64,000 nucleotides of DNA from Euglena gracilis (Eukaryota), in NCBI GenBank assembly GCA_039621445.1, contig CP154954.1, positions 40,169,572 through 40,233,571 on the forward strand, read 5' to 3'. Below are positions 20,261-62,120 of the stretch, one piece after another. How positions within the stretch are numbered: the first letter of the stretch is position 1; each line of letters begins with the position of its first letter. The notes beneath the pieces are model-generated. The model was not told where the DNA came from and made no database searches. It saw only the letters and a program-made list of their open reading frames with translations. Made by a program: the position numbers and the translations under genes.

Positions 20261-20476
20261 CCCCCCCCCCCCATAATTGACACCCCCCCATAATTAACCC
20301 CCCCCCCCCCCCGACCGAAAATTTTTTCAGCCGCTCGTTTGGGGTTTGTCGGGAGTCCCTTGTATTTTGCCTTGTCCGTTCGGACCCCCCCCCATAATTG
20401 ACACCCCCCCATAATTGACACTACCTGGGGGTTTGGAGGGTGTCGGGGGTGTCAATTATGGGGGGGGGGGGAGTGG
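20261..20476. mobile_element. TA-TSD MITE (Tc1/mariner-like) inside a transposase intron
   Basis: ta|ccccc..cataattgacac ... gtgtcaattatgggg..gagtgg|ta. Sister copy at ~34251-34487. Confidence 0.75.
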
Positions 20477-20833
20477 TACTTTTTTTAAGATATATATTTT
20501 GAAAATCAAAATGCAGGTTGATCGCTTGGAGAGGCAAGTGGGGAGATTTGTTTTTGCGACAAACAGCCCTTTCAAAATTGTTGAGCACCCGGAGTATGCG
20601 GAGATGATGAATGTGGCTCGTCCTGGTATAATAAAGTTGCCAAAGCGAAAAGTTGTGGGAGGGCGGATTCTCAACGCCGTGTATGACGAAGAATGGAAAA
20701 AGTTTGCTGCTTCTTTGGATGGAAAACATTGCACTATGTCAATGGATGGGTGGTCCACTTTGACAAAGCAGCCTTACATTGCAATTTTGTTGGCAAATCG
20801 ACTGATCGACACAATCGATACAACGGATAGTAG

Positions 20834-21011
20834 GGAGATCAGGCGGTGAACTTTGGGTTTTTCGGGCGGGACCCCCCCCACCCCCCCCCTCTTCATTGGA
20901 AATACATGGCGGTGAACTTCACCGGTGAACTTCACCGGTGAAGTTTCTCCATTGAAATTCCTTTAGGGGCGAAGCCCCCAACCCCCCCCCCCCCACCCCT
21001 GCCTTACCTCC
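20834..21011 (+). mobile_element. Short GGAG..CTCC MITE, TSD TAG
   Basis: tag|ggagatcaggc ... ccttacctcc|tag. Confidence 0.85.
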
Positions 21012-23219
21012 TAGGGACAGCTTTGACATTGTTTCTTGCCAAGAGTGGTCCTTTTGTCCCCAGTTTGTTTGCACAAGTGGGAGATCCCACTTCTTGGTGG
21101 CAGGCCGGGCGTCTCCCGGGCTTCCCTGACCCCCTTGTGTCTGTTGCCTTGCGGTTGTGTGCGTGCATATGTTCCACGGCCAACTTGGAACGTAATTTTT
21201 CAACCATGGGGTCAATGCAACAATTCGGGGTTCATGGGCAAAAACATGTTGATTCAAACTGGTGCAAATCCAGCACTGAGATTTTTTGCAAGGAGTCACT
21301 TGGTAGCTTCATCAAACAAAAGAGTGCTCTGGGAGGTTCAAGAAAAGGAATTGTTGCATTTCATCACACGTGTATGGTAAACTGCGTTCTCGCCTGTCAG
21401 TTGACAAGGCGAACAAGCTCACTCTCCTTTAACGCTGTTTCAATGCGTTCGGTTGCGACGAGCAATCGGACAACGAGGAGTGAACCCTATGAAATACAGC
21501 GGCCTTTCAAATATGCCATGCCTTGATCCACTTGGTAGGTTGTTTTTTTTGGATGGAGATTTATGGCATCAATTAAAAAAAGAATGGAAAAAAATGCCAC
21601 TTTCTCGTTCATCTCCCTCGAAGATGTTTTCGACTTTTCCCCCGAAAGGGCGATTTTCAAAAAAAAACACAAGAATTTTGCATTTTCAAAAAAAAAACAT
21701 GTTTTTTATTGCGTTTTTTTTTTTGAAAAAAAACACGTTTTTTTGTTTTTGTTTTAAAAAAAAACAAAAAAAACGCCAACCCTGGATGCGGAGGGGAAAA
21801 ATATAACAAAAGGGTCAAAACCGCCGGCTTCTTATACACAAATTGTGAGCCCAGATTTCAGCCCCCTTCGGGGGCCTCCCTGAACATTTTTTCAGGCTGA
21901 AATATGGGCTCAACCACAATTTGTTTAAAAACGTGTTCAGAGCCCGCCAAATGCCTGCCCTGAAATTTGTGGTCATGATTCACGCCAGGGGAGAAAAATG
22001 CGAAAATGTGAACTTTGACCGAAAAAAGGGTGCCCCAAAAAACACACCGTCAAAAAAAACAGGCCAGCCCACTATGCCACCCACTATGGCTGAACACACG
22101 GCAAAGTTTGTGAATGGTCCTTTGCCACCTCCCACTAGGACGGAACTGTTCCTGGCTGCTCTCGCGGTGTACCAGCAAGATGCCAAGAAGCCGAAGGTTG
22201 ACCCCCTTCATGGCACCTTGTTGGCACAGGGCAACACAAAGAAAAAGTCTGGCTTTGTAGGTGCAAAGCTTGCTGCTGTTGCCAATTGTTTGGAGTTCTC
22301 CAAACAGTGTCAACATCGGCAAGCATGCGACATCCCCATGACGCGGGGGGGGGGGGGGGGTGGGTTTCGCGGCAGGTCATGTGTGACTTGTGTGACGTCG
22401 TCCTACCCTCTAATTTTAGATCCCAATTCCCAATCCCAGTCCGAAAATAGGTACAATTAGGAAATTGGGACCAATTTTTTGTGTTTTTGAAACCGTGTTT
22501 GGGCCGATTTCGAGACTTTAAAAGTCTTAACTCTTCGCCCAAAACACGGTTTCAAACAAGAACAGTGTTTTGGGCCAAGGTTTTAGGGGGGCCCCGGGGC
22601 GACCACGGCGCCTTCGGCGCCGCGGTCCCCGCCCCTGGGCTCCCCCTAACCCTTGGCCCAAACACATCTCTGCAATAGATTCCTAATTGAGTGGCCAATT
22701 CCTAATTAATGCAAAGTTTTTTGTACTTTTTGGAAACCCGAATCGGGCTCAGGGTGGGTCGCGGGGGGGTCGGGGGGGGGGTCGCGGGGGGGGGTCGGGG
22801 GGAAACACCCCCAAAGGGTGAGGTTGCTGACAATCACGGTGGTGAGACCAAACAGCTATGGCGCGGAACGTTGCATGGTGGTCAACTGGGCAAATTATTG
22901 CCTCGGCCGAAAATCAGGACCTCACCGATGTTCCCTCTGTCTTTCCCACCGCCGAGCAACGTTCTGCTCCTGCGCCCAGCAGCTCCGTAGCGCCTCCCCC
23001 CTTGACCAACCCTCTCTGCCTCCTGCTGTGTCCCAACTGCCTATAAAACAGGACAATTGTGGTTTTTGTGGTGTTGCCATTCCCAAAAATCCAAATTGTG
23101 TGGAGCTGAGGAAAGTGGTGTTTTGGCATACCATTTTCATTGCCATGATTTGCGGCGGCAACCAAAGTATGGCTCTTTTTTGGGTAAAGTGTGTGGTCTT
23201 CCGTGATGTCTAACACTCA

Positions 23220-35024: not shown

Positions 35025-35450
35025 TCTCTCCCCCTTCGATTCGCCCCTCTCCCCCTTCGAACCGCCCCTCTCCCCCTTCGATTCGCCCTTCTCCCCGCCC
35101 CTCTCCCCCTTCGATTCGCCCTTCTCCCCGCCCCTCTCCCCCTTCGATTCGCCCCTCTCCCCCTTCGATTCGCCCCTCTCCCCCTTCGATTCGCCCCTCT
35201 CCCCCTTCGATTCGCCCTTCTCCCCGCCCCTCTCCCCCTTCAATTCGCCCTTCTCCCCGCCCCTCTCCCCCTTCGATTCGCCCCTCTCCCCCTTCGATTC
35301 GCCCCTCTCCCCCTTCGATTCGCCCTTCTCCCCGCCCCTCTCCCCCTTCGATTCGCCCCTCTCCCCCTTCGATTCGCCCCTCTCCCCCTTCGATTCGCCC
35401 CTCTCCCCCTTCGATTCGCCCCTCTCCCCCTTCGATTCGCCCTTCTCCCC
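35025..35450 (+). repeat. 21/33-bp pyrimidine-rich minisatellite (tcgattcgcccctctccccct)
   Basis: Directly visible. Unit lengths are multiples of 3. Confidence 0.9.
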
Positions 35451-36919: not shown

Positions 36920-37252
36920 GCCAAAGCCCCTCGACAGGCCTCAGCCAGAGCCCCTCAGCGAGCCCCAGCCAGAGCCCCTCGACAAGCCTGAGCCAGAGCC
37001 CCTCGACAAACCCCAGCCAGAGCCCCTTGACGAGCCCCAGCCAGAGCCCCTCGACAGGCCTCAGCCAGAGCCCCTCAACAAGCCTGAGCCAGAGCCCCTC
37101 GACAAACCCCTGCCAGAGCCCCTTGACGAGCCCCAGCCAGAGCCCCTCGACAAGCCCGAGCCAGAGCCCCTCGACAAACCCCTGGCAGAGCCCCTTGACG
37201 AGCCCCAGCCAGAGCCCCTCGACGAGCCCGAGCCAGAGCCCCTCAGCGAGCC
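36920..37252 (+). repeat. 24-bp tandem repeat (agccccagccagagcccctcgacr)
   Basis: Directly visible. Variants are mostly CpG transitions. Confidence 0.9.
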
Positions 37253-41600: not shown

Positions 41601-44600
41601 GCTTTGTGCCCCCCCCATCTGCCCCCCCTCCCCCCCCCCCCACCTGTCCGTATGTCAAACCCCAGCCCCAGCCCCCTTCGCTCCAGTGGGGTCTGGGGGC
41701 ACCGCCAGCTGCACCCTGCCCCGACCTGGATCGAGCGGCTCTTCAACCCCGTCATCGCCCCCTACCGCGGCATCCGCCAGCTCCTCGAGCAGGCTGGGCG
41801 TTGTTTGATTTGACACAATTTTGGGTTTCGAAGAAAGGGTCGAAGACGATGAACAATGGTGAGCGTGAGTGGTTTCATATGGTGAGGGTTTTTCCCCCTG
41901 GGTGCCTTCCAAATCCGTGGGAGCTTCATGGGACACTTCCGCTGCTGTCCCTGTTTGAGACCCTCTTTGAGAAAGAAAAGCTCTTCATCGCAGCTTTCCA
42001 CCAATGCTCAGCCTGCCGGCGAGTACTGGTGGATCGTGGAGACGGCGGAGGAGGCCACCGCGAAGCGCCTCCAGGCGCTGCACGCGGTGGCCGACCCCGC
42101 CCTCTGCGCCCGCTGCCACCCACGCGTTTATTTGCTTTGTTCAATGAAATCCAACTATCCAACTAATGGGTTGGGTGTGCATCACCGTTGCCGAGGCCCC
42201 CCCCCCCTCTGGATTGGATCTCCACCCCAACCCAAGCCCATTCATCCCCCCCAGCCTGTGTTGCACACCACTCCAAGGTTTGGGTTCTTTTGACCTGGGA
42301 AGACCCCCGAGCCCTGCAGCTATGGGATTTTTCTGGGTTGGGGCCCAGGGGCCCTTGGTCCATACCCATTTTTTTAAAAGGTTTTTTTAATTTGAAACAT
42401 GTTGTGAAAAGTATTGGAGGCTTCATTCACACAGGAAATTATGAAATGAAGCTTGACACTGGGCGCGTCTGAAGTCTTGAAATGTGAAAAAGCGGAAATA
42501 TAAAAAATTAAGTGCGTGGCCACACCACCACCGCTTCGGGTTGAAGGACACGGACGTGAATGGCACCATGGTGCCATTGTGCCCATGGTGCGTATATGCA
42601 CCGGTGTGTTTGTCACCCCCTGTTTTGTCGTACCTTTCAATGTTTCAATGGGGTGGGGTTGGTGCATGGGGAGGGTGGATGTGCCCCTCACCATGGGGGG
42701 GGGTGGCCATGAGTTGCCAGAAATGACGTGTGCTTGCTCCCTTGCTTTTGCAAAGTGCCGGAAAAATTTATAGGCTTTCGTATTTACCCCCCCCCCCAAG
42801 GTGCCCCATGGTGCCCACCCTGGAAGTGAGTGGATGCTGACCAGGAATTTTTTAAGTTTGGGGCGGGGGGGGGGTGAGTCTGCTGCCCCCTCCCCCCGAA
42901 AATTGCCGAGGATTTTTGATCCCCAAGGGGACCCCTCCAGGCCTCCTTTTAAGTCAGAAGAGACCGGACCCAGGTGTGAGTTTCGGTGAGAAACACCAAA
43001 ATTCTTTCAAAAAATGCCCTTCAATGCCCCGATTTGGGGGGGGGGGCTCCAGGGATGGATGGGAAGCCCTTCGGTATTGAGGTAGGTGGTAGGGGGGGGG
43101 TGCCCGACCACCCCCCCCCCCCCCCCCTAGATGTTGGGAGGGGGGTCCGGACCCCCCACCCCCCCTCCTTGACAGGTGCCAAAAATAGCAGAAATTTTTC
43201 TTCCGGCGCTGCGCGCCGGAAAATGAGCAAAAACACCCCTTTTTGCTGACTTTTGGCCATATTGCCCTTTTTTTGATGTGTTGGTGTTTCCCCCCAAAAA
43301 ATTGTTCAAAAAATTTCAAGAAACGAGCATTTTTGTGTCGATTTTCAAAGAAAAATCAGGGATTCTTGACCGATTTCGACCCGATTTTCCGGCCCTTTGC
43401 CCGTCCATAAAATCGAAAAATTTTCGGCCCCCCCTCAGTTTCGAGGTAGGAGGGGGGGGCCGACCCTCCCCCCCCCTCCGTGTCGGGAGGGGGAGGTCCG
43501 ACCCACCCCCCTCCCCCCTCAAGGCTTCCCTGGGGATCCCTGGAGGGCTCGCCAGGTTTGGTGCGTGGAGGGGGAGCCATGAGAAGAAGCCCGGACCCTC
43601 CCCCGGTCTCCTGAAAAGGGCGCAGTGCAATAATCACCGGTTGTGGGTAAAAATTCTGACACGTTGAGGCAAATATTTTGCCAGGCGTGGAAAAAATTTT
43701 GGGAGCCAGGTGTAATGTTTTTGCAAGTTTCATTCATCTGGTGTCCAATTTACACGTAATTCAAAATCCTTTTTCCAATTCTGTTGGCGTCCCCAAAAAT
43801 TCTCACTTGAACCTTGGTCATTCTTTGGGGTTTGGGGAAACATTCTTCTCCAGATGCACCTGCCAATGATGCTGATTTTAAAACGGTCAATCCCCTTGCC
43901 CTTCACAGTGGGCACCAGCTGTGGCCGCCCGCGAAGCCGCCCAGAACGCCGCCCGCCACTACAGGCGGCCGCCAACCCGTTCGGTGTGTGATGCCTCCTC
44001 AATATGCCCCCACCCCATGTGCCCCAAGTGGAAAGTGCCAATAGTTAGAAGCCAGCACCTTTCTTCCAGCTGAGAGTCGTGGTGGTGCGAACGCAAATTG
44101 GTGCCAAATGTTTTTCTGGTATTTATCATGTTTCCAGCTTGCCTGGTACTTCCCGTTTTTAAGACATGGATCGGAGAAAGCAGTTCTTTGCTTTGATGGT
44201 GAGTCAACAAAAAACGTATTGGCAGGAAATCCGTTGTTCGGGCGACATCCTGTCATTGAAGCTCCACTCAGGGGTTTTTTTTAGCCTTGCCCGGGGGGGG
44301 GGGGGCGTAGGGAGTGGGTCCCTTGGCCCCCCCCCCCCCGGGGGGGGGGGCGGTGGGTGCAGGGGCTGGTGGGTATATCTTTTTCGGTGCTGAAGGCACC
44401 AAATTTTTTGAAAAGGTGCCATTTTCAGCATTTTTGGCCATTTTCGGGCAAAGTGGGTGGGTTCCCCCGGGGGGGGGGGGCGGGCACCCCAGGGGGGGGG
44501 GGTGGATGCCGACCCCCTCCCCCCGGTCTTAAAAAAAACCCCTGGCTCCAATGTCGAATTTTCTGTTTGTTGCAAATTTTCTGCCATTTTCCCAATTTTT

Positions 44601-47600: not shown

Positions 47601-48940
47601 GCGCCGCCGCCGGAGCCCGCTGCGCCGCCTGCCGATGCTGCAGCGCAGGAGCCAGTCAAGCCAGGGTTCAGTGCCCAGGGCTCGTGATTTCAGAGGTTTT
47701 TTTTAAATTTCGTGGTTCGGGTTGGGGGAGACGAACCTCCTCCCCGGGGCTGAGTGGGTGTCCCGCCAGGTTAGCTTTTGTTTTTGGTGCGAGTTTTTTT
47801 TGGACGCAAGATTGACCCCAAAAGTCGGTCCCTCCAAGCCCCCCCCCCCCCGGGCCCCCCAGGGAAAAGGTGTGGCCAACGAGGACCCTCATGGCAGGAA
47901 GTGAGCGTTAGATTTGAGCAGGGGGGTCTGGGTACCAAGGGTTTTTTTTAGCCTTGAACGCTGAACCCCCCCTCCCCCCTGGGGGGGTCCCCCCAGGGGG
48001 TGGTGGGGTACACTTTTCGACGCCAAAGGCGCCGGAAATTTTTGAACAAGGTGCTGTTTTTAGCATTTTCACGATTTTTGGTCATTCTTTGGGGAAATTG
48101 ATTGGTCCCCCGGGGGGGGGGGGGGTGAGGGGACCCCCCTGGCAGGGTTCGATATGAGGAGGGCGTACATGGTTTAGGTGGGGGGGTGTCCCCCCCGCCC
48201 CCCCCCCCTCCTGGCCCGCAGGGGGGGGGGTCCGGACCACCCCCCTCCCCACCTGCAAGGGGGGTCCGGACCGACCCCGGGGGGCAAAAATTGACCCCCC
48301 CCAAAAAGGGTCAATTTTTTCCTCTGGCGCTTTGCGCCGAAAATTTTTTGCATTTTTGGCACATTTTTGCCCAAAAAAGTGCCCAAAATGGCACTTTTGG
48401 TCGTTTTGGGGGGGGTCAAAAATTTTCGGCCACCCTGACCACGCACCTATTTAGGTGGGGGGGGGTGTCCCCCCCACCCCCCCCTCCTTGCCCCCCGGGG
48501 GGGGGTCCGGACCACCCCCCCACCTGTCCTTATATCGAACCCTGCCCCCTGGTCTTTAAAAAAAAACCCCTGCTGGGGACCCCTGAAACCCAGACTTCTT
48601 TTGGTCTCTTTTTGCCAATTTGCTGAGTAAATCTCCAAAATGCGATTTTGCAATGTGCACAAAAATGTCATAAGATGCATTAAATAAGAGGTTTGGGGGG
48701 GGGAAGAAACTCAAAAAAAAATGAAATTGTTTTTTTTTGGAGCAGTCTGTTGTGTTTTTTCCAGTTAAATTGATTGTTTGGTGGGGGTATGTCCTGAAAT
48801 CAGACGGGCGTGATTTCTTTGGGATGAAGGGCCCTTCTCAATGCCCCACCCCTGTACCGCAGAGCCCCAGTGCTGTGCCCTGCACACGACCAAACGCCCT
48901 GCGCCGGGCGTGGAGGAAGCTGAAGAGCAAGCTGCGGTGA
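38636..48940 (+). CDS. 14-exon gene for an unknown, probably membrane protein (371 aa from ATG 38636; may extend upstream)
   Basis: Exons 38636-38680, 40509-40590, 41701-41786, 42021-42117, 42524-42587, 42801-42825, 43909-43983, 44957-45018, 45490-45621, 45821-45906, 46706-46798, 47264-47388, 47568-47658, 48888-48940 join into one stop-free frame (1116 nt) with GC3-rich codons: MATVAAAVILLLARRTPPPTN...LCARCHHHRF...LCPWC...WWLVPLLTAIG...RRAWRKLKSKLR*. Confidence 0.8.
39306..40028. mobile_element. hAT-type MITE (CAGGG..CCCTG), TSD cccctaac, containing nested MITE 39359-39790 (TSD gggtaggg)
   Basis: Both 8-bp TSDs are perfect. Confidence 0.9.
40734..41140. mobile_element. hAT-type MITE CAGGGTT(C/T)GATATAAGG family, TSD ggccaggg
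   Basis: Perfect 8-bp TSD. Same family as 39359-39790 and 48143-48544. Confidence 0.9.
43050..43542. mobile_element. hAT-type MITE CAGGGATGGATGGGAAGCC family
   Basis: TSD gggggctc/gagggctc (7 of 8). Homologous to ~52103-52570 and 55508-56270. Confidence 0.85.
44269..44544. mobile_element. hAT-type MITE
   Basis: cagggg..cccctg. TSD gctccact/gctccaat. Confidence 0.85.
45274..45449. mobile_element. hAT-type MITE
   Basis: Perfect TSD gccagaag. Confidence 0.9.
46123..46474. mobile_element. hAT-type MITE (CAGGCTT..AAGCCTG)
   Basis: Perfect TSD gctacagc. Confidence 0.9.
48143..48544. mobile_element. hAT-type MITE nested in another MITE
   Basis: Perfect TSD ccccctgg. Confidence 0.9.
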
Positions 48941-50081: not shown

Positions 50082-50958
50082 CAAGGATGAGTCTTGGTCT
50101 TGTATTCTTGGGGGGGTACCAAGAGTGACCCAAGATTCTTGCCCCCCCACCCAAGACCCAAGATCTTGGGTGCAGGCAATGCGAATGTGAAGAAACAAGA
50201 TGCTCAACACCAAGTCTTGGCCCTTGCCATCACATGCATGGTGCTTCACAAGGATCAAGATTTGCGTCGTTTTGCTAGGATCTCATCTAGCAACGCCTCC
50301 TGTTTAGCACGATGCTTTTCACGCAAAGCAGAGTTGCGCTCAGGCTGTTTTTTTTTTACCAACCCCGGGGGGGAGGGGGGTCAGAAGTGCCTTTGAGTGC
50401 CTGCCCAGGCAGGCACTACCCCCCCGGGGGGGGTTGGGTTTCGGCCTGTGCCCAGGCACTTTCCTTGGAAAATCGGCCATTTTAGGCCATTTTTTTTTGC
50501 CTTCCGGCGCCTTCGGCGCCAGGGTGCCTTGCCAGGCACTTTTGGCCAAGTTTGTTGGAGTGCCTTGGGGTGCCTGCCCACTAAAAAACAGCCTGGTTGC
50601 GCTTGGTCCTTTCTTCGGCCAGCTTTGGACGCATGACAGAAACATAGTTCATGGCAAGCCAGAGCTGTGACTCGCAGTGCGAAGCGGTTAGGCGAGCCCG
50701 CAACTTTCCAAGCATCAATGTATGTGTTCCATCTGCGTGCGAAATGGTGTTGTGAAAAAAAAAATGCAAACCAATTTCAAATCACACCTTGTGACTCCGA
50801 CGCGTTTTAAAAGTTTAGGTTCACGACCTAGAGAAACCTTCTGTGACGAAAAAATTTTTCGGCCGGGGTCCCAAGACCCAAGAATCTTGTCATTCTTGGG
50901 TACCCCCCCAAGAAGCAAGATCTTGGGGGGGTAACCCAAGACCCAAGACTCATCCTTG
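50082..50958 (-). mobile_element. Deleted hAT-like element (CAAGGATGAGTCTTGG TIR) with a transposase C-terminal relic at 50255-50732
   Basis: 16-bp TIR, flanking repeat ccccaaa (7 bp match). Relic reads TLMLGKLRARLTASHCESQLWLAMN...ILAKRRKS*. Confidence 0.75.
50341..50595. mobile_element. hAT-type MITE inside the transposase relic
   Basis: Perfect TSD gttgcgct. Ends caggctg..cagcctg. Confidence 0.9.
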
Positions 50959-51907: not shown

Positions 51908-54900
51908 TCAGCGCCCCTGCTCCAACGACGCCTCCGACTGCCACCACCGACGCCCCCCGTCAGCGTCCCCGGTCCCACTGAGGCCTTTTTTTGCTCATAC
52001 AAAGGCTGTACAGTTTTGGGAGAGGGAGGTTGTTAAGGTTGGAATCTGGGGGTTTCTTTAGTCTTGGACCCCCGGGTGGGGGGGGGGGAGGGTGGGGGGT
52101 CCAGGGATGGATGGGAAGCCCTTCAGTATTGAGGTAGGTGGTGGGGGGGGTCCCTCCCTAGGGGGGTGAGGTGGTCGGGGGGGGGGGGTCCGGACCCCCC
52201 TTAGACGTTGGGAGGAGGGTTCAAAAAAATTCAAAACTGAGCATTTTTGGATCGATTTTCAAAGAAAAATCAGGGATTTTTGACCGATTTTGACCCAATT
52301 TCCAGCCCTTTGCCCGTGCATGAAATCGAAAAATCTTTGTCCCCCCTCAGTTTCGAGGTAGGGGAGGGTCCGACCCCCCCCCCCCCCCCCCGTGTCGGGA
52401 GGGGTCCGACCCCCCCTCCCCCCTCCCTCAAGGCTTCCAACATTTTTTTTGGGGGAAAACCACCAACACATCAAAAAATGGGAAATATGTCCAAAAGTCA
52501 GCAAAAGGGGTGTTATTGCTCTTTTCCGGCGCTGTGCGCCGGAAGAAAATTTTCTGCTATTTTTGGCACCTGTCGAGGAGGGGGGGTCCGGCCAAGTCCC
52601 CACCCGGGGTCCCCCCAGCGGGGAGTGGGGTATATTTTTCGGCGCCGAAGACATCAAAAATTTTGAAAAGGTGCTATTTTTAACATTTTTCGCGATTTTT
52701 TGGCCATTTTGGGGGGAAATTTAGTGGGTCACCCGGGACCTCTCCCTCCCCCAGGGGGTGGGTGGGTGAGGGGACCCCCCTGGTCTTAAAAAAAAAACCC
52801 TGGTTGGAAACCTACCAGGAGTGAAGGGACCACATGCAAAGTTTTTTTGTTTTGTCTCTGGCAAAAATGGGCAAAGGGGGCCAAAGTGTGGCCAACCGTT
52901 GCCAAAAGTGGCAAAAGCGACCAAACGTGGCAAAAAGCGGTCAAAAATGCCTAAAAATTCCGAAAAGTGTCCCAAAAATGTCCAAAAATGGCCAAAAGTT
53001 GCCAACCGTAGTCAAGAAATAGCATAAATGGCCAAAAACAGCCCAAAAATGGCCATATACCCCCATCTATGGTAAATTTTCCTCTGACTTGGGGTCCACC
53101 CCGCTTGTCTAACGACCACCATCACCCCCTGGTCGGAGATGAACATTGGCCATTTAGCGACCCCCCCCCCCCGTCAGAGACGAACATCAGTGGTCGTTGG
53201 ACAAGAGGGGGGGGAGTAGGGGGACCTTCTCCTGCCCTTGTATCCAGTGGCCCGTTTCCTCAAAAAAATTTTCATTTTATTTTCTTTTCCCTTTTGGCAA
53301 GGACTCAGCCGGCCACGGGCACCCCGGGGCTGCCCCCCCCCTCGGGGGTGTGCCCCCCCCCCGGTAAAAAAAAGCCTGCTACCTGCTGACCTGACCTCCT
53401 GTACTCGCTGATTTGTCTGGAGACAGTTTCCAGGGGGAGAGGAATTCTGTGCTTGCACTGGAAACTGGCCTGCCTGTGAGTCAGCCCACAACACCAACCC
53501 CTCAACCCCCGAAGCCCCCGGCCACCCTGGGCCCACCCCCGCACCTCCGGCTCAACCCCCGAAGCCCCCGGCCACCCTGGGCCCAACCCCGCACCTCCGG
53601 CTCAACCCCTGAAGCCCCCGGCCACCCTGCCACATCCCCTCCCCCGTGTCGGATGACCTCGCTTGGCCTCGGTTCGCCCTGGCCGAGCGAGGGTTCCCGG
53701 CGCGGAACGGGGGTGCTGTGCACAGCCACCTGAACCCCACCGCCTGAACCACCGACCCCCGCAGCATTGGGCTCACCCCCCGCAGCTCTGGCTCAACCCC
53801 CGAAGCCCCCCGCCGCCTGGGGCCCAGCCCCCCACCTCCGGCTCAACCCCCGAAGCCCCCGGCCACCCTGGGCCCACCCCCCCGCACCTCCGGCTCAACC
53901 GCCGAAGCCCCCGGCCACCCTGCCACATCCCCTCCCCCGTGTCGGATGACCTCGCTTGGCCTCGGTTCGCCCTGGCCGAGCGAGGGTTCCCGGCGCGGAA
54001 CGGGGGTGCTGTGCACAGCCACCTGAACCCCACCGCCTGAACCACCGACCCCCGCAGCATTGGGCTCACCCCCGCAGCTCTGGCTCAACCCCCGAAGCCC
54101 CCGGCCACCCTGGGCCCACCCCCGCACCTCCGGCTCAACCCCCGAAGCCCCCGGCCACCCTGGGCCCAACCCCGCATCTCCGTCTCAACCCCCGAAGCCC
54201 CCGGCCACCCTGGGCCCACCCCCGCACCTCCGCCTCAACCCCCGAAGCCCCCGGCCACCCTGGGCCCACCCCCCCGCACCTCCGGCTCAACCCCCGAAGC
54301 CCCCGGCCACCCTGCCACATCCCCTCCCCCGTGTCGGATGACCTCGCTTGGCCTCGGTTCGCCCTGGCCGAGCGAGGGTTCCCGGCGCGGAACGGGGGTG
54401 CTGTGCACAGCCACCTGAACCCCACCGCCTGAACCACCGACCTGCCTGTGAGTCAGCCCACAACACCACCACACCAACGCTGCCGCCGATCCAGCAGCGT
54501 GTGGCCCTCAGCCCCCGGCAGCCGCCTGGCAGCTTCCTGGCAACGTTGTGACATTGTGATGCCGGGAGAATTGTCCTCTGTCTGCCCTCTGTACCTGCCC
54601 ATTAATCTGTCTTCATGGGGACCTGTCTCCCACCCTTGTTCATGCTGACCTGTCTGTTTGTTTTTTTTTGTTCAAAAAGCCGGTTAAAAAATTCTGAACA
54701 TTTTCTCCAGGCTTCCAGCCACAAATTTGTGGAAAAATGCTTTTCGGTTTTTTTTGTCCCCGGTGGCCGATAATGTCAACTTTTCCCCCTCCGACCCTGA
54801 CCCGCCCGGGAAATTGTCCCAGCTGTTTATGTGCCAGAGCAGGGGGTTGGTTATTGGGATTTTGTCCCCACCCCTCCCCCCTGAAATGGTCTCCCGGGAA

Positions 54901-57440
54901 ACTGTCTTTGACCCTCTGCACCACACCATTGCTTGCCATAGAGTGTGCCACCCCCCCCCGGGTGATTGACCAATTTTTTCCGGAGTGAGTGATTGGTTTT
55001 TAGCTCCCCCCCCCTGGAGGGCAGTGGGGTCGGCCACCTATCACCAAAGGCGCCGGAAAATTTTGGGGTTTTTTTTAACCAAAGTGCATTGATTTTCGGC
55101 AATTTTTTTTGCCATTTTGTCATTTTGGCCCAGTGGTCAGTGTAACTGACCATCCCCCCCTGGGGTGGGGGGCAGGGGGTAGGGTGTGGGTGATTGGTTT
55201 TTGGAAGTGGGTGACCGGTTTTTGAAAAGTCAGTTTGTGTTGGACAGACCATCAGCTCTACCCTGACCACACTGCTCCTGGCAATCCTGGTTTTTGGTGG
55301 TGGCAAAGGAGGCTGCCTGCAATGACAGCACATCCCCTGCACCCCCCCCCGGCCGTGTCGGATGACCTCGCTTGGCCTCGGTTCGCCCTGGCCGAGCGAG
55401 GGTTCCCGGCGCGGAACGGGGGCCCCAGTCCGTATGGCCCCTGGCTTCCGCCACGTGGGACATAACAACGTGGTGTGCCTCTATTTGAGCCTGCTGTGTG
55501 TTGACACCACGGTTGGATGGGAAGCCTTGAGGGGGGGGTCGGACCCATACATCTCTCTAAGGTTTTGCGAACCCCTCCGGGGGGGCGGCTGCAGCCAGCC
55601 CCGATTTGGGCCCAGCCCAGCCGCAGGAGCACCCCCACCGGGGGGGGGGGGGGTGCTGCTAGCCCAGCTAGCCAGCCCGTTTTTTGGGGGTCCAGCCCAA
55701 AATTTTTCGGCGCGAAGCGCCGAAATTTTTTGAAAAATTGTGTTCAAAAGTGGCCAAAAATGGGGTTTGGGGGGCGTTTGGGGCATTTTTGGGGGGTTTC
55801 AGATGCATCATTTTTTCAAAACTGTGTTTTGCAGGTCATTTTGGGGCATTTTTCCGATTTCAGTCCAGCTCGCCCCGGTTCGGGTCCAGCCGGGGTCCAC
55901 CCCCCCACCCCCCCCCCCCCCGGGGGGGGGGGGGGCGGGCTAGCTAGCCCAAATTTCTAGCTAGCCCAAATTTCTAGCCCTAGCCCAGCACCCCCCCCCC
56001 CCGGGGTCCTTAAAGAGATGTATGGTCGGACCCCCCCTCCCGACACAGAGGGGGGGGGGTGGGCAAAAAATGGGCAATATGTCCAAAAGTCAGCAAAAGG
56101 GGGTGTTTTTGCTCATTTCCGCAGCGGAAGAAAATCTTCTGCTTTTTTTGGCACCTGTCAAGGAGGGGGGGGGTGGGAGGGTCCGGACCCCCTCCCAACA
56201 TCTGGGGGGGGGCGGTCCGGACCCCCTCTACCACCTACCTCAATACCGAAGGGCTTCCCATCCAACCCTGGTTGACACCCTCTCCATTGGTTGTGTCTCC
56301 CCACCCTCTCCATTGGTTGTGTCTCCCCATTGGAATGTCTCTGTGTGTTTGAGAAGGGAACACGTGTGGGGGTGGGTCCACCCTGGGGTGCCTCAAAAAT
56401 CTGAATCGTGCCTGATCATCTGAAGCCCTGGGCAAATGACGGATTTTGGGATGCATGGGATCCGTGGTGGTTTCTCTTGTGGAACGGTTGGGAATATCGA
56501 AACTGACAATAGCCTGTTCCTGTAACCACTCCGTTTCTTTGATGTAAGAGGGGGGGGGGACTCGAGGAAGCCTCTCCTCAATATTTCCCCCGCACAGGCT
56601 CCCCGTGGTTTTATCAGCAGCCCCGTTATGTGCGCTCCATCCGCAGCTTGGCAAACAGCCCCCTGGGCTTTATGTGGTATGTGTGTGTTTGTGTGTGGGG
56701 GCGTTGTTTTAGGGGCCAGATTGCCTCAATCAATGCCAGGAAAGCGGGGGGTGCCAAACAGGGGTTTTTTTGTCATGGACCCGGGAGGGGGGGGGAGTAG
56801 GGTGGGTCGTCCGGCCAAGCCCCCCACCCGGGGGGGTCCCCCCGTAGGGGGGTGGGATATACTTTTCAGCGCCTTTGGCACCGAAAATTTTTGAAATTGT
56901 GCATTTTTTAACACTTTTCGCGCTTTTTCGGTCATTTTTTTGTGAGCCCCCCGGGACCCCCTCCCAGGGAGGGTCCCCCCCAGGGGGTGGGTGGGGGCCC
57001 TCCCCCCTGGTCTTAAAAACACCCCTGGTGCCAAAATGCGCAACCAGCCCCCGGGACCAGGTCAGCTGGGTTCCCCACCGCCAAAAACCCCATCAATGCC
57101 AGAACCACTGCCCCCCCCCCCCCCCCCCGAACAGCAAAATTTTGGCAATTTTTAGGCATAAATCAGGGCATGGGGGGTGGTTTTGGAAGCAGACCTTAGA
57201 AGGTCGCATGATACCCAAAAGGATGGGTTCTGTTGCAGGGTGACAGACAAGGTTTTCTTTCTGTGACGAGATCCTATTTTGGGGGAATTCCACATCCCCC
57301 CCCCAATACCAGCCTTAAAAATGCCAAACGAAGCCCAGCAAACTGGGGGTTCAGCCCAACAGCGCAGTTCCCACCTTGCAGGCCGCGGTGGGCAGCCCCT
57401 CAGCCCCGGCCCCTCAGCCCCACCCAGCGCATCTGCCAGG
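51908..57440 (-). CDS. Multi-exon gene for an unknown hydrophilic protein; 5' end unresolved
   Basis: Exons (?-57310), 56662-56274, 55502-55250, 54649-54475, 53473-53383, 53258-53196, 51970-51908 join in one stop-free frame (345 codons including the stop from 57310): ...NIEERLPRV...NGEGV|NTQQAQ...GRADG|QHEQGW...RRQRW|QASFQC...SGQQ|ETGHW...LLSN|GDADGGRRWWQSEASLEQGR*. No recognisable domain. Confidence 0.65.
53497..54440. repeat. Compound tandem insertion (~50-bp units plus three ~130-bp blocks) between 28-bp direct repeats
   Basis: cctgcctgtgagtcagcccacaacacca at 53469-53496 and 54441-54468. Confidence 0.9.
55508..56270 (-). mobile_element. hAT-type MITE with perfect TSD gttgacac; predicted nonconventional intron 55503-56273
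   Basis: TIR ca(c/g)ggttggatgggaagcc. TSD at 55500-55507 and 56271-56278. Contains nested MITE 55546-56024 (CATACATCTC TIR, TSD gtcggacc). Confidence 0.9.
56759..57027. mobile_element. hAT-type MITE (intronic)
   Basis: Perfect TSD gtgccaaa. Confidence 0.9.
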
Positions 57441-59359
57441 CCTCTTTTTCTCCCCATCCCCTTGCTTTTGGGATGTACGCCCCCTCCCTCCCGGCACAGT
57501 CTCCCCTCCCTCCCAGGGGGAGGCTGGTGGGTGGCCCACAGGGATGCCGGGCCCCCCATCAGTCCCCCCTGCTTTGCGCCCTCTCCCCCCCTCCGGTTTG
57601 AAAGGGGACGGTGGCCACGACCCGCGGCGGTTGGCACGCACGCCGGGGGCAGGGTTGGCGGGCGGCCCACAGCGATGTGGGCGGCCCACCAGCCCTCCCC
57701 CAACCCCCCATCCCCTCCCTCCCATGCCCCATCCCCCTCCCGCCTGGAAAGGAGGCCGCCCCCGAGGCTGCCCCCCCACCACCGCCCCCGGGCGCCCCGG
57801 CGCCACTAAGCGCGGCTGGGCCAGGGCCCTGGCCTGGCGTACCGGGCAGACCGCGGCCAAGGGGAAGGGGGACCCCCTTGGCCTTCCGCTGCGAGAAGGG
57901 CCGGTTGGGAGCGGGGGCCGTAGGGGAGGGTGAGGGGGGACACCGTAGCCGGGATTCCCAACCGGCCCTTCATTTGTCGCCTGACTGCCCCGCCTGGCGG
58001 GGGCTGTCACATAGCGTAGGGCCCCGGGGGGGGTGGGGTGGGGGGGCTGGGCACACGGGGGTGAAATGACAGCTCCCAGGATCGCCTCAGCCGCCGCCCA
58101 ATCCTCCCTCTCCTCTCATTCATTACAACAACGTCGCCGCCTTCTCCGCCGACTTTTTTTTTCCTTTTTGCCGTGCCTGGGGGCTACTTTTGGGTTGGTT
58201 CTTTTGTTGGTGTGGGTGGAGCCTGAGGAGCCGTGTTTTCAATGATGGCTGGAGGCTTTTGGGTTGGTTCTTTTGTTGGTGTGGGTGGAGCCTGAGGAGC
58301 CGTGTTTTCAATGATGGCTGGAGGAGTTTTGAAGGGTTTTTGCAACGAATGGTGTCCAGAGGTGTTGCTGTTGTGAAAAAAAAATGGAGTGTGAAAGTTG
58401 TAAGCTGGTGGGAAGACATCAAAAGTGTTTTTTGGGGGGGTTTGAATTGCACCTTGGCATTTGTTTAAAGGTGTTACCCAAAACATTGCCCTTGGCACCT
58501 CCCGTCAACTGCCAACCACATGGTGGCAATGGTGGAACAAAAGGGCTATGGTGATGGGCCAATGGCAACCACATCATCATTTCTTTTTTTTGCTATTTGT
58601 CCTGATTCTGGCATCAAACGACATCTGCTGCTGTGCTCTATGAAAAGGGGGGGGGGGCATGGGTTTGGGAAACAGAATGTGATGGTGGTCATCACCATGA
58701 AACTTGCATTCGTCCAAGGTCTTTTTTGCGACTCATTTTTGGGAAAAAGTCTGTGCACAACCAACTTTTTTTGTTGCTGTGGGCACCAACAGTGTTGTGG
58801 GCTTCAAAGTTTTTGTGAGGCATCATTGAAACTTGCAATTTTTTATTCAGCAGCAGTGGGAGTCGTTTGTGCCTGATTCAAATTTTGTTGTTTCTGCCCA
58901 ACCATCAAAACTCAGTTGTTGATTTTCTGTATTTTATTAACGTTATAGCTATTTAGCATTGTTTTCTGTTTCCTTGTTTGATCAAGAAATGATATTCTGT
59001 GTTTCAATTGTTTTTTGTTGAATATGCATTTTGTAGAAAGGTTGGTTTATCTGTGTATTCTGGAAGCAATTTGGTTTGGACTCTCTTATCCTCTCTCTTT
59101 TGTTAAAAAAATATTGGCACGTTGCATGTTGTATTCCATTCCATCAGTATTTATTTTTATTTTGAATTCGGCCTCTCACAACGTGGCCCTACCACAACCC
59201 CCCTTCCAATCCAGTGCCCCGTGGCACCGCCCACCAGGCTTTGGTGGTTTGCGACTCTGGTTTTTTCATATTAGTTTGCTTCCCAGTGTGTCAAAAACTT
59301 TTCTGGGTGACTCGCACGCTTCTGCGCATGCACGCACACCAAAACACGTTTCTGGTATG

Positions 59360-62120
59360 GGTTAGTGGAGTTGGTGGAGTCCGTCCCCTGCTGTCTCTCC
59401 CGCGCCTCGCCCCCACCTCACGCAGCCTGCGCCGCACCCCCACCCCCCGTATGTCTTTGGCTTGCGGCGCGACCAGGGGGCACTGAAGACGCGGCAGCCG
59501 GGGCCGGCGGCGGCGGCGGAGGCGGAGGCGGCCGCAGCCGGAACGGCGGGTGCGGGTGCGGGTGCGGGTGCGGGCAGCCCCCAGTCCCCCAGCCCCTCCC
59601 CAGCGCCCTCCGAAGCATTGGCCGGCCTGCCCGCCAGGTGTTCCGCTGCTCGCCCCTCTCATTGCCCCACCCACAGAGTTGGATGCAAGGATTTTTTTTC
59701 AAAAAAATAGAACAAAACTCCGCCTCTGGTGGGGTACCCCCCCCCCCCCCCCCCCCCCCCGGGTCAGCCACCCACCCTCCTCCCCCCCCCCGGGCACAAC
59801 TTTTGGATTGTCTATTTTTTTTGGACCCAGAATTGACCCCCCAAAAGTGGGTCCCCCCGAGGCCCCCAGGGGTTGGGTGGGTGGGTCCAGACCCCCTCCC
59901 TGTGGTGGGTCGGTCCGCCAGACCCCCCCCCCCCAGGGTACCCGCGACGCCTTTGTTCACGTTAGTGATATATAATAATCATGATCATGGTCGTTCTCGT
60001 CGCACATCGTCATCATCATCATCATCATCATTATCATCATCACACTCACAATGGTTTTATAAAAATAAATTTGCAATAATGTATGTTGGGCCAGTTTTCA
60101 TTTGGCGAGGGCTGCAATCCCCACGACACCCACAAGTCGCCTAGCGGTTTGTTAGTTGTTTTATTTTCTTTGCTTTTTCCCCCCCCAAATGCAACCCCCC
60201 CAAACTTCACCCCCCCCGCCCCGAAGGCTTTTTTGTTGAACCCCGGTGCAAACAATTGATTGAGTGAATCCACATGAAATGAGGACAATTGTCCCTTTTT
60301 ATCACTTTTTTTTATTGCACCAAAAGCTGCCCCCAGACCAGCACACAGCAAAGCAAAACCTGCAGGGTTTGAATGGAACACCACTCCCTGAATTTTATGG
60401 ATTTCTTTTAAGACCGGGGGGGGGGTCGACCCCCCCCACCACAGCACCATGCAAAGAAAAAATGCTTTGGTGCCACCAGTGCAGAAGGAAATTTTTGACC
60501 AAAAAAATCGGTGCCCTTGAGAAGAATGCTCGACAGGGTTGTGTCCAGTACAACAGCACACCCCCAAAACAACGACTGGGGGGGGGGGGTCTGGACCCTT
60601 GCTTTTGGGGGGGGGGGGGTTTGGGCTGCTGAGCATCATAATTGAGGGGTGGGTGATTGCCCACCCCTGGGTGATTGCATTTTCAGGTCGACCTCTCACC
60701 ACGCGGGCGGCCACTGCACCCTGCTCCCCCGGCAATATGGTCCGGGACAATGCGCGCACACATATGCAAACATTCTGGGTTATGAGAACATGTGATCACC
60801 AGAAGATCAGAAATTCAGGTGAACTGAGTTTTTTTTTTGAATGGTCGTGATTTTCAGGGAAAATTCTGGAAAAAATGGAATATATACATATGCATGCAAG
60901 TCTGACAGGAAATCTTTTCAATGCATTCTCCTCTGGCTGGGGACAATTTTGGTCGGTGTTTTGGTCAGGCATCTGCCAGTTTTTTTTTCCCTTGGTTGCG
61001 GGGGTGAGCAGGGGGTTGGCACTCAGCCCCATCTCCAGTCCACCTCGGAGCCATGGCGCTGCTGCTGCTGCCATCGCCAACCGAGCACCTCCCCACCCGC
61101 CAACTCAGGGCCCCCTGCTCCCACCCGGCAGCTCACTGGTGTTGGGTTTCCCTCTTCCAACCCGTGGACGCTTGTACCACACCCCCAGGAGTGTGCACCG
61201 AATGCGTGCGATGGACACGTGTGGGGGCATATGATGGTGGAGTGGAATGGAGCATGCTTTTCCCCCACCTCAACCCGGCGAACCCGGCGTGGTATGAGCA
61301 GGGGTCACTGAAGGGATCCGGCAGGCGGCAGCGAAGGCACGGGTGGTAGGCGCAGGGGCGTGCGAGGCAGCACCTCTGCACACCTCTCGCCGCAAACCGC
61401 TCAGGTGTGCCCTGCTGGATTGGCGGGAACACACACGAAGAGAGGTGTCGCGCTTGACTTCAGTCAAAAATGGCAGGATGGAAACAAGGAAGGCGGTGGA
61501 GCGCATGGATTCGAAGTTTCCAAAGGCATTATACTTTGCTTTTCATCCTCACCATGCAATTGTTCGATGTAGGTTCTTTTTTCATTCGTGGGGCAAGGGG
61601 TGACTGGTTTTTCTGAAACTGGATTGCAGTATGGTGTGCAGGCTTCTTTTTAAGTCAGCAGACCCCCCCCCCCCCCCGGGGGGGGAGGGGGGTGGGTGGG
61701 TGGGTCCGGGCCGGACCCCCCCCCCTGGGGGGGTCCTGCGCCGGAGGCGCTGGGTATACCTTTTCGGCGCGAAGTGCCGAAAATTTTTGAAAATTGCCTT
61801 TAACGGGCCCGATTTTGGGGGGGTCCCCCCCCCCCCCCCCCCTGGGGGTCCCGCGCCACCCTGGGTGGGTGGGGGGGACCCCCCCCCTCCCCCCCCGGGG
61901 GTCTTAAAAAGAAGCCTGATGGTGTGTTTTCCCTCATTATTTTGCATCTTTGCCCACCGGTACATTCAGGTTCTCTCCACCATGAAGTTCGACTTCGACG
62001 TGTCTGCTGCCCATGCCAGCCCAGCACCCACCCCCACCTGCCTGCCCAGTGCCCGATGCTACCTCAACAGTTGTGCATGTTGTTCGCAGATCGCAGATGT
62101 GCATGTTTTTGGCAAACGCT

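What the first reader, a model, noticed from the sequence alone, without database searches (positions are those of the whole stretch)
55500..56278. A hAT-type MITE apparently caught becoming a nonconventional intron
Seen: on the - strand an open frame runs from 56662 to ...GGA GAG GGT GTC, then meets a 763-bp MITE (CAGGGTTGG...CCAACCGTG) flanked by a perfect 8-bp TSD GTGTCAAC, and stops inside it at 56235. Removing 56273-55503 (AAC-CAG...GTG-GTGTC|AAC) restores ...GEGV-NTQQAQIEAHH..., open for 253 more nt and in phase with four downstream exons. Established: euglenid nonconventional introns start with a purine, pair +4..+6 with -8..-6, and are followed by a purine; hAT elements have CA..TG ends and 8-bp TSDs. 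Inference: the 3 unpaired nt at the 5' end plus 5 at the 3' end equal one TSD, so splicing removes the insertion seamlessly. The same family also sits as ordinary intronic insertions (43050-43542, ~52103), which makes it an introner-like intron source. A transposon origin for these introns has been proposed; whether the hAT 3+5 = 8 link is documented needs a literature check. Caveats: frame restoration is automatic when element plus TSD is removed, and the -8 base is G rather than C.
Basis: partly seen in the sequence, partly recalled or inferred. Interest (0 to 1): 0.95.

Follow-up and report, generated by a model that had tools for sequence, protein, structure and literature searches.

The report
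Transposon insertion, not a nascent intron
A small hAT-type jumping element with perfect insertion scars really sits here, but it lies in non-coding, repeat-filled DNA and shows no sign of being a new intron; its relatives do carry the exact end pattern that Euglena's unusual splicing system recognises.

Summary
The sequence observation holds. A 763-bp inverted-repeat element lies at 55508-56270 (- strand), with an 18-of-19 terminal inverted repeat and a perfect 8-bp duplication, GTGTCAAC. It has two relatives in the window.

The reading "exon insertion caught becoming a nonconventional intron" is not supported:
- **Chance frame.** The 222-codon frame restored by removing the element is no longer than the frames at 17-25% of random positions in this window.
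- **No coding signal.** Codon-position GC is flat. There were 0 Pfam hits and 0 hits among 1.84 billion protein representatives.
- **No frame constraint.** A perfect 26-bp tandem duplication is read in two frames. The related DNA contig of run X1 has length changes that are not multiples of three.
- **No RNA.** Three RNA runs gave zero depth on the upstream flank.
- **Broken splice motif.** This copy has GTG where the published Euglena code (N3-CDG...CH'G-N5-6|R, PMC12501133) needs CTG. Single substitutions there abolished splicing in that study.

The general idea fares better. Ten other CAG...CTG elements with 8-bp duplications lie in the window, and all ten fit that code in at least one orientation. 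A hAT transposase remnant lies at 20.4-21.5 kb. I found no paper that links the code's 3+5 spacers to an 8-bp hAT duplication.

The organism was never named by any tool.

The parts
55508..56270 (-). Composite hAT-like MITE, 763 bp: a 276-bp outer element carrying a nested 479-bp element
   Evidence: The family is highly repeated: summed word depth in DNA run X1 is 1e5-1e6 across it, against about 100 on single-copy flanks.
56252..56270 (-). 5' terminal inverted repeat, 19 nt, starts CAG
   Evidence: I18.
55508..55526 (-). 3' terminal inverted repeat, 19 nt. It ends GTG instead of the family's CTG; the - strand base at 55510 is G, which is intron position -8
   Evidence: The family copy at 43050-43542 has CAG...CTG.
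56271..56278 (-). Target-site duplication, upstream copy (GTGTCAAC on the - strand)
55500..55507 (-). Target-site duplication, downstream copy (perfect match)
55546..56024 (.). Nested 479-bp TIR element with ends CAT...ATG and its own perfect 8-bp duplication at 55538-55545 and 56025-56032
   Evidence: Contigs of other copies skip 486-496 nt here: 8 X1 contigs and 1 X15 contig.
56274..56669 (-). Judged a chance ORF in single-copy non-coding DNA
   Evidence: RNA depth is 0 in bin 56373-56606 in X15, X16 and X21.
55230..55502 (-). Downstream open frame of 90 codons plus stop. It contains a dispersed 88-bp repeat unit
56276..56327 (.). Perfect 26-bp tandem duplication next to the insertion site, translated in two different frames by the proposed ORF
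   Evidence: (D7).
55335..55422 (.). 88-bp repeat unit, 93% identical to three units in the 293-bp tandem array at 53501-54398
   Evidence: X1 depth is 5576 in bin 55203-55436.
56759..57027 (.). Neighbouring 269-bp CAG...CTG MITE with a perfect 8-bp duplication (GTGCCAAA), 90 bp from the start of the open frame
43050..43542 (+). Same-family copy, CAG...CTG ends, 7-of-8 duplication
52102..52586 (+). Same-family copy with its 3' end lost near 52432, followed by an inverted fragment at 52472-52586
20415..21526 (+). Degenerate hAT transposase remnant in two ORFs, lying between inverted 9-mers identical to this MITE's terminus (20118 on +, 21784 on -)

Best explanation
This is an ordinary insertion of a hAT-like MITE into non-coding, MITE-dense DNA. 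It is not an exon insertion in the course of becoming an intron. A 276-bp outer element, itself hit by a second 479-bp TIR element, integrated by a cut-and-paste transposase that left an 8-bp target-site duplication. The open frame that appears to be 'restored' when the element is removed is a chance ORF of a GC-rich sequence.

The family's architecture (CAG...CTG termini, a paired TIR, an 8-bp duplication) coincides with the published splicing code for Euglena nonconventional introns. Intact members landing in exons should therefore be removable without a scar. This copy, however, has lost the C at -8 (CTG to GTG) and shows no transcript.

Shown here: the element, its duplication, its composite structure, the family copies, the hAT remnant, the lack of any coding signal and the motif defect. 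Inferred: the non-coding status, and that the transposase was of the hAT type.
For: **The element is real and hAT-like**
- TIR and duplication. The scan gave 28 hits against 0-1 in 20 shuffles.
- The family is present in the window and highly repeated in DNA run X1.
- A hAT C-terminal dimerisation domain scores above Pfam's cut-off at 20942-21526. The ORF just upstream of it looks like DUF659 / ZBED1_RNase-like.

**The flanks do not look like an exon**
- A stop-free frame of at least 222 codons spans 17% of 4000 random positions in the window, and 25% in the 34-64 kb part.
- Two of the three downstream frames are open for at least 82 codons. The upstream frame therefore still joins an open frame (204 codons) after one copy of the 26-bp duplication is removed.
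- GC at codon positions 1, 2 and 3 is 0.545, 0.553 and 0.545.
- 0 hits among 1.84 billion protein representatives for the upstream 132 residues.
- 0 Pfam families for both flanks and for 112 of 112 ORFs from the 40-64 kb part.
- 0 relatives of the downstream 90 residues.
- The single-copy X1 contig over 56266-56730 differs by a 1-nt deletion at 56290, a 41-nt stretch replaced by 3 nt, and further gaps. The net length changes are not multiples of three.

**No transcript seen**
- Depth is 0 in bin 56373-56606 in X15, X16 and X21.
- 326 of the 327 X21 reads that were laid fit only partly, so they come from repeats elsewhere.

**The splice motif is defective**
- The 3' motif is GTG. Every tested substitution within CAG or CTG abolished splicing (PMC12501133, section 7).
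Against: **The RNA evidence is thin**
- Only about 5% of the raw-read run X21 was read.
- X15 and X16 are only guessed to be RNA.
- The tool warns that a hole in coverage proves nothing.
- 142 of 157 joints were not displayed, so a rare junction could have been missed.
- Low-depth, exactly matching RNA-run contigs lie nearby (54528-54922, 55053-55224, 58032-59310), so the neighbourhood may be weakly transcribed.

**Some features still fit an intron**
- 38.8% of annotated E. agilis nonconventional introns do not fit the published code (PMC12501133, section 11). A GTG end with a perfect 16-bp stem behind it might still be processed.
- All other code features are met on the - strand: an N3 spacer before CAG, a 5-nt spacer, a purine at the start of the next exon, and a strong end-to-end stem.

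**Limits of the negative searches**
- Lineage-specific genes often have no homologue.
- The hAT assignment rests on a marginal Pfam score and on termini without a matching duplication.
Confidence: 0.8

Rival explanations
1. The MITE interrupts a coding exon on the - strand and is removed from the pre-mRNA as a nonconventional intron (56273-55503). That removal takes out the element plus 3 + 5 nt of duplication and so restores the frame.
For: - Removal restores a 222-codon frame.
- On the - strand the N3 spacer before CAG, the 5-nt spacer and the purine at 55502 fit the code (PMC12501133, sections 8-11).
- Both junctions are pyrimidine|purine, as described in PMC11282704 (passages).
- The ends pair in the minimum-free-energy fold: -420.3 kcal/mol, z = -9.06, and 0 of 20 shuffles fold as well.
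Against: - Frame restoration is automatic when an element plus one duplication is removed, and the frame is of chance length.
- There is no coding signal, no homologue and no Pfam hit.
- A 26-bp duplication is read in two frames.
- The X1 contig differs in length by non-multiples of three, and RNA depth on the upstream flank is 0.
- Position -8 is G, and substitutions in that motif abolished splicing (PMC12501133, section 7).
Confidence: 0.05
2. The MITE lies inside a larger intron or an untranslated part of an unrecognised, weakly expressed gene or non-coding RNA. It is removed or retained passively with its surroundings, so its own ends play no part in splicing.
For: - Low-depth contigs that match exactly lie on both sides in the RNA-guessed runs: X15 at 54528-54922 and 55053-55224; X16 at 58032-59310.
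- According to PMC12501133 (section 5), E. agilis has 55,727 genes and about 700,000 introns in 1.5 Gb, so much sequence is intronic. This applies only if the organism is a Euglena.
Against: - No exon, splice joint or homologue was found anywhere in the 40-64 kb part.
- Depth of 4-6 in runs only guessed to be RNA could be carried-over genomic DNA.
- X21 gave essentially no locus-specific reads.
Confidence: 0.2
3. The element belongs to a different superfamily that also makes 8-bp duplications, such as Merlin or P, and not to hAT.
For: - Merlin families with 8-bp duplications were reported in E. gracilis (PMC8101967, passage).
- No autonomous partner with matching TIRs and a duplication was found here.
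- The inverted 9-mers around the hAT remnant have no matching duplication.
- One of 100 shuffles reached the observed count of that 9-mer.
Against: - The only transposase signal among the 262 ORFs scanned across the window is hAT.
- That remnant lies between inverted copies of the same terminal 9-mer that this MITE carries.
- No DDE_Tnp_IS1595 or other transposase family was hit.
Confidence: 0.1

Closest known systems
Euglenid nonconventional introns, as defined genetically by Nomura et al. 2025 (PMC12501133: 5'-N3CDG-/-CH'GN5-6|R)
   Same: Taken as an intron on the - strand, the element has a 3-nt spacer before CAG, a 5-nt spacer after the 3' motif, a purine as the next base, and a long stem behind the motifs. 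Ten other MITEs in the window fit the whole code.
   Different: The 3' motif here is GTG, not CH'G. No transcript, exon or spliced product was seen. The organism is not confirmed to be a euglenid.
hAT-superfamily MITEs (for example Mar in Drosophila, PMC3517528, and BniHAT in Brassica nigra, PMC7385995; search listing and abstracts only)
   Same: 8-bp target-site duplication, short TIRs, no coding capacity, high copy number, and a hAT transposase relic in the same genome.
   Different: A matching autonomous partner has not been shown. The element is a nested composite and is GC-rich, with long C/G runs.
Recently gained nonconventional intron 4 of gapC in E. agilis strain ACOI 323 (Milanowski et al. 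2016, PMC4770533, passages)
   Same: That polymorphic, newly gained nonconventional intron has eight-nucleotide direct repeats at its junctions. This is the same length as the duplications seen here.
   Different: That intron sits in a known gene and is spliced. Its authors attributed the repeats to double-strand-break repair, not to a transposon duplication. The locus studied here has no gene.
Introners, and Ds-derived introns in maize (Huff et al. 2016 and Giroux et al. 1994, both seen only as references in PMC11170887 and PMC3935182; Gozashti et al. 2022, PMC9860276, listing only)
   Same: DNA transposons whose ends, together with the duplication, supply the signals that let the insertion be spliced out of the RNA.
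   Different: Those use the conventional spliceosome and GT-AG-type sites. The mechanism considered here is the structure-dependent nonconventional pathway, whose machinery is unknown.

Membership tests
hAT-superfamily non-autonomous element (MITE) | 8-bp target-site duplication | tested here: met
   Perfect GTGTCAAC on both sides. Shift controls for the 10 other CAG...CTG elements gave 0-1 hits against 10 in register.
hAT-superfamily non-autonomous element (MITE) | Short terminal inverted repeats with CA...TG-type ends | tested here: met
   19-nt TIR, 18 of 19 paired. The 5' end is CAG. The 3' end is mutated to GTG, whereas the family copy at 43050-43542 has CAG...CTG.
hAT-superfamily non-autonomous element (MITE) | Small, non-coding and multicopy | tested here: met
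   763 bp (276 bp without the nested element). The four ORFs inside it that were among the 112 scanned gave 0 Pfam families. There are two more copies in the window and very high summed depth in DNA run X1.
hAT-superfamily non-autonomous element (MITE) | A cognate autonomous element that encodes a hAT transposase and shares the termini | tested here: inconclusive
   The remnant at 20415-21526 scores 22.2 bits on Dimer_Tnp_hAT (cut-off 21.4, E = 1.2e-4) and 0.95 on DUF659 / ZBED1_RNase-like in the Atlas. It lies between inverted copies of the MITE's terminal 9-mer. There is no matching duplication, and only 9 nt are shared. The 9-mer occurs 9 times against 2.72 expected, and 1 of 100 shuffles reaches 9.
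Euglenid nonconventional intron | Lies in a transcribed gene and is absent from the mature RNA | tested here: not met
   No RNA depth on the upstream flank in X15, X16 or X21, and no such joint among the 15 of 157 joints displayed. The coverage caveats make this weak.
Euglenid nonconventional intron | 5' N3-CDG | tested here: met
   AAC followed by CAG at 56273-56268 on the - strand.
Euglenid nonconventional intron | 3' CH'G followed by 5-6 nt | tested here: not met
   GTG followed by GTGTC. The base at -8 (55510, - strand) is G. No alternative register offers CH'G.
Euglenid nonconventional intron | Purine as the first base of the downstream exon | tested here: met
   A at 55502 on the - strand.
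Euglenid nonconventional intron | Base pairing behind the motifs that brings the ends together | tested here: met
   The minimum-free-energy fold pairs +2..+5 with -7..-4 and the next 16 nt with each other. Only +6/-8 is unpaired.
Euglenid nonconventional intron | The host is a euglenid | not testable with these tools
   No genome is held. Run labels are coded. There were no Rfam hits and no named protein relative.

The most novel reading that the evidence does not exclude
The CAG...CTG MITEs of this genome, with their 8-bp duplications, may be the direct source of euglenid nonconventional introns. On this view the code's fixed spacers, 3 nt before CAG and 5 nt after CTG, are the RNA-level mirror of the 8-bp hAT duplication. 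The nonconventional pathway would then act as a precise RNA-level excision system for hAT MITEs: any intact copy that lands in an exon with a purine at duplication position 6 is removed without a scar. The published code, the synthetic-intron results and the ten code-compliant MITEs found here fit this view. The 8-nt repeats at the newly gained gapC intron fit it as well. I found no paper that states the link to hAT or to the 8-bp length.
Probability: 0.5. Interest if true: 0.75.

Novelty: new member of a known kind. Interest (0 to 1): 0.35.

Why it matters
It should not be cited as one.

The window does supply something useful. It holds a clean set of hAT-like MITEs whose ends and 8-bp duplications reproduce, base for base, the splicing code that was worked out experimentally for Euglena nonconventional introns. 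The origin of these introns has been open since a MITE origin was proposed in 2013 (PMC3935182). At that time no transposon had been identified in a euglenid genome.

The 3 + 5 = 8 correspondence turns the question into a simple genome-wide test on data that already exist. If it holds, it explains two things: why the spacers have those lengths, and why 84% of E. agilis introns are 'slidable' (PMC12501133, section 5).

Tried and rejected
- **Whole genome.** None is held for this window. No genome-wide copy count, empty-site search or search for an autonomous element was possible.
- **Sequencing-run search.** No RNA holder was listed. Runs X15-X20 are only guessed to be RNA, and their small shares are largely repeat words.
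- **Junction search.** The proposed joint is not among the 15 joints displayed, and 142 were not shown.
- **RNA families.** The Rfam gathering scan of the window gave 0 matches.
- **Homology, flanking frames.**
  - Upstream frame: 0 hits in the exhaustive HMMER search and 0 in Pfam.
  - Downstream frame: 0 hits.
- **Homology, hAT-like ORF 20415-20849.** There were no longer relatives and no match to a solved structure. ORF 20942-21526 gave only a chance-level PDB hit, E = 0.76.
- **Naming the organism.** A search with the weak 'Sterile'-domain ORF (18368-18589) found nothing.
- **Earlier findings of this scan.** Nothing relevant was found.
- **A full-length element around the hAT remnant.** No pair of termini carries a matching 8-bp duplication.
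- **Motif search for the hAT domain.** Strict patterns found nothing. A looser scoring pass found the ORF, and Pfam then confirmed it.
- **A row corrected.** In the code-compliance table, the row for the 43050 copy used a wrong end coordinate and was discarded. Read by eye, that copy has CAG...CTG but a pyrimidine at duplication position 6 in both orientations.
- **Files not seen.** Supplementary files were not opened. Three items may already show an 8-nt peak: Fig. 1B and SI Fig. S3 of PMC12501133 (the distribution of sliding distances), its Datasets S7-S8, and Table S3 of PMC4770533.
Full report
**What is in the sequence**

On the - strand, a 763-bp element runs from 56270 to 55508.
- Its 19-nt ends are inverted repeats with a single mismatch. 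The repeat finder reports the arms 55506-55526 and 56252-56272 as 21 nt and 95% complementary.
- It is flanked by a perfect 8-bp direct repeat, GTGTCAAC, at 56278-56271 and 55507-55500.
- This is far beyond chance. A scan of the window for any perfect 8-bp duplication that brackets a 14-nt TIR (at most 2 mismatches, 40-3000 bp apart) found 28 cases. Twenty first-order shuffles gave 0 in 19 runs and 1 in one run.

- The stop-to-stop frame starts at 56669.
- The downstream frame runs 90 codons, to a stop at 55232-55230.

The two further family copies are real.
- 43050-43542 has CAG...CTG ends and a 7-of-8 duplication.
- The copy starting at 52102 is rearranged and has lost its 3' end.

**The element is a composite**

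The scan also picks out a second TIR element of 479 bp at 55546-56024, with its own perfect 8-bp duplication (55538-55545 and 56025-56032). It sits inside the first element. The outer MITE is therefore 276 bp long. Contigs from other copies of the family skip 486-496 nt at exactly this place: eight contigs in DNA run X1 and one in X15.

Summed word depth across the element in X1 is 1e5-1e6, against about 100 on the single-copy flanks. That sum is not a copy number, but it shows a very abundant family.

**Is it hAT-like?**

The 8-bp duplication and the CA...TG-type ends fit. Of the 262 ORFs from the whole window that were scanned against Pfam (112, 150), the only transposase signal is Dimer_Tnp_hAT. 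It falls on the ORF 20942-21526, at 22.2 bits against a curated cut-off of 21.4 (E = 1.2e-4).

The ORF immediately upstream (20415-20849) has a faint DUF659 hit (E = 0.24). Its language-model look-alikes are DUF659 and ZBED1_RNase-like clusters at 0.95, which account for 24 of 30 hits.

This remnant lies between inverted copies, at 20118 and 21784, of the same 9-mer that ends the MITE. The support from this is limited:
- those ends carry no matching duplication;
- the 9-mer occurs 9 times against 2.72 expected;
- 1 of 100 shuffles reaches that count.

The hAT assignment is therefore likely but not proven. Merlin elements with 8-bp duplications have been reported in E. gracilis (PMC8101967, passage).

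**Is it in an exon?**

Nothing says so.
- **Frame length.** Removing the element plus one duplication gives a 222-codon stop-free frame. A frame at least that long spans 17% of 4000 random positions in the window, and 25% in the GC-rich 34-64 kb part.
- **Downstream frames.** Two of the three are open for at least 82 codons. When one copy of the adjacent perfect 26-bp tandem duplication (56276-56327) is also removed, the upstream frame simply joins another open frame of 204 codons. The proposed protein reads that 26-bp repeat in two different frames.
- **Codon periodicity.** GC at the three codon positions is 0.545, 0.553 and 0.545 upstream, and 0.689, 0.578 and 0.622 downstream.
- **Homology.**
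  - The upstream 132 residues have 0 hits among 1.84 billion representatives.
  - Both flanking frames have 0 Pfam families, even at E up to 1.
  - The downstream 90 residues have no relative.
  - All 112 filtered ORFs of the 40-64 kb part gave 0 families.
- **Repeat content.** The downstream 'exon' contains an 88-bp unit (55335-55422) that recurs three times, at 93% identity, in the 293-bp tandem array at 53.5-54.4 kb.
- **Variation in the related contig.** The single-copy contig of DNA run X1 covers 56266-56730. It carries the last 5 nt of the MITE, so the insertion is shared. It differs from the window by a 1-nt deletion at 56290, a 41-nt stretch replaced by 3 nt, and other gaps. The net length changes are not multiples of three.
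- **Neighbourhood.** Another MITE (56759-57027) lies 90 bp from the start of the frame.

**RNA**

Four runs were laid on 54501-61500.
- The bin 56373-56606, which lies wholly within the proposed upstream exon, has depth 0 in X15, X16 and X21. In DNA run X1 it has single-copy depth, 91.8.
- Of the 327 X21 reads that were laid, 326 fit only partly and run on into unlike sequence. They come from repeats elsewhere.
- No joint equal to the proposed intron is among the 15 displayed.

This evidence is weak, for four reasons: 142 joints were not shown; only about 5% of X21 was read; X15 and X16 are only guessed to be RNA; and the tool warns that holes prove nothing. Low-depth contigs that match exactly at 54528-55224 and 58032-59310 leave room for weak transcription nearby.

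**Could this copy be spliced at all?**

Nomura et al. 2025 worked out the code by knock-in experiments in E. gracilis. I read the abstract and sections 5, 7, 8, 10 and 11 of PMC12501133.
- The code is N3-CDG ... CH'G-N5-6 | R, with base pairing behind the motifs.
- Every tested single substitution within CAG or CTG abolished function.
- The 5' spacer must be exactly 3 nt. The 3' spacer is 5 nt, with 6 tolerated.
- Fully synthetic 50-bp introns that obey these rules were spliced.

On the - strand the present element offers AAC-CAG at its 5' end and GTG-GTGTC followed by A at its 3' end.
- Five features fit: the 5' spacer and CAG, the 3' spacer length, the purine, pyrimidine|purine at both junctions, and a strong terminal stem.
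- The C at -8 does not fit. It is G here, and no other register offers CH'G.
- On the + strand the element fails twice (CAC at the 5' motif, and a pyrimidine at the exon start).

One reservation remains: 38.8% of annotated E. agilis nonconventional introns lie outside the code.

**What does hold: the general correspondence**

A scan for CAG...CTG ends (12-nt TIR, at most 2 mismatches) gave 231 candidate pairs. Ten of them have an 8-bp flanking repeat with at most one mismatch, and nine of those repeats are perfect. Shifting the comparison by 1-3 nt in either direction gave 0-1.

These ten belong to several families, between 39.3 and 61.9 kb. All ten meet the full published code in at least one orientation: nine on the + strand and seven on the - strand. 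The focal element is the one that fails. The 43050 copy, read by eye, fails only the purine rule.

The code's spacers add up to 8. So an intact member inserted into an exon, with a purine at duplication position 6, would be removed together with exactly one duplication's worth of flank. That restores the original message. This step is an inference from published genetics combined with the anatomy seen here.

**What is already in print**

- A MITE-like origin was proposed by Milanowski et al. in 2013, who noted that no transposon was then known in euglenids (PMC3935182, passages).
- The 2024 review describes the CAG/CTG positions as TIRs and the junction repeats as 'TSD-like' (PMC11282704, passages).
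- Milanowski et al. 2016 reported that a newly gained, strain-specific gapC intron has eight-nucleotide direct repeats. They attributed these to double-strand-break repair (PMC4770533, passages).
- Nomura et al. suggest a MITE source. Their main text has no occurrence of 'hAT', 'TSD' or 'target site duplication', and '8 bp' appears only as the position of CTG.
- The review has no 'hAT', '8 bp' or 'superfamily'.
- Six library searches found no paper that links euglenid introns to hAT or to an 8-bp duplication.
- I did not see supplementary files. The sliding-distance figure of PMC12501133 may already show such a peak.

**Verdict**

- The classification as a hAT-like MITE and the 3 + 5 = 8 logic are supported.
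- The claim that this insertion sits in an exon and is becoming an intron is not supported.
- The organism was never named by any tool. If it is not a euglenid, the comparison with nonconventional introns lapses.

Noticed in passing
window 20415-21526 (+), with termini at 20118 and 21784: Degenerate hAT transposase remnant in two ORFs. The first is an RNase-H-like part (Atlas DUF659 / ZBED1_RNase-like, 0.95). The second is the C-terminal dimerisation domain (Pfam 22.2 bits, above the cut-off). The remnant lies between inverted copies of the 9-mer that also ends the focal MITE. No matching duplication was found.
   Followed up: partly
window 39306-40028, 39359-39790, 40734-41140, 44269-44544, 45274-45449, 46123-46474, 48143-48544, 50341-50595, 56759-57027, 61639-61918: Ten CAG...CTG TIR elements of 176-723 bp from several families, each with an 8-bp duplication (nine perfect). 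One is nested in another (39359-39790 inside 39306-40028). All ten fit the published nonconventional-intron code in at least one orientation.
   Followed up: partly
window 55546-56024: A 479-bp TIR element with CAT...ATG ends and a perfect 8-bp duplication, nested inside the focal MITE. It belongs to an even more abundant family: the highest X1 depth, about 1.2 million, is in bin 55671-55904.
   Followed up: partly
window 53501-54398 and 55335-55422: A tandem array with a 293-bp period, built of 50-bp sub-repeats plus an 89-bp unit.
   Followed up: partly
window 2448-3150 and 7999-8656: Two further TIR elements with perfect 8-bp duplications but different ends (GCACCC... and GGCAGCC...). The second has a palindromic duplication.
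   Followed up: no
window 34700-37300: A very GC-rich stretch (up to 0.67) with strong negative GC skew (-0.32). Long, highly repetitive frames are open on both strands, such as Gly/Glu/Arg/Ile repeats at 34945-35469 and Pro/Ala/Gly-rich frames of 350-460 codons at 35876-37326. It could be a satellite or a low-complexity gene.
   Followed up: no
window 1-2000 and 18525-18845: A dispersed or tandem repeat family whose translation recurs (motif ...KGFA.Q.DLETQGILLFWGP...). There are several units at the left end of the window and one next to the hAT remnant.
   Followed up: no
window 18368-18589 (+): A weak Pfam hit to the 'Sterile' domain, the C-terminal domain of fatty acyl-CoA reductases. E = 8.6e-4 and 19.9 bits, below the cut-off of 35.4. 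No relative was found in the protein search. It could be a lone exon or chance.
   Followed up: partly
window 55900-55940, 55632-55655 and elsewhere: Runs of 12-14 C followed directly by 12-14 G form perfect palindromes. They recur inside MITEs across the window. RNA reads in X21 pile up at such runs (57107-57129, 58046).
   Followed up: no
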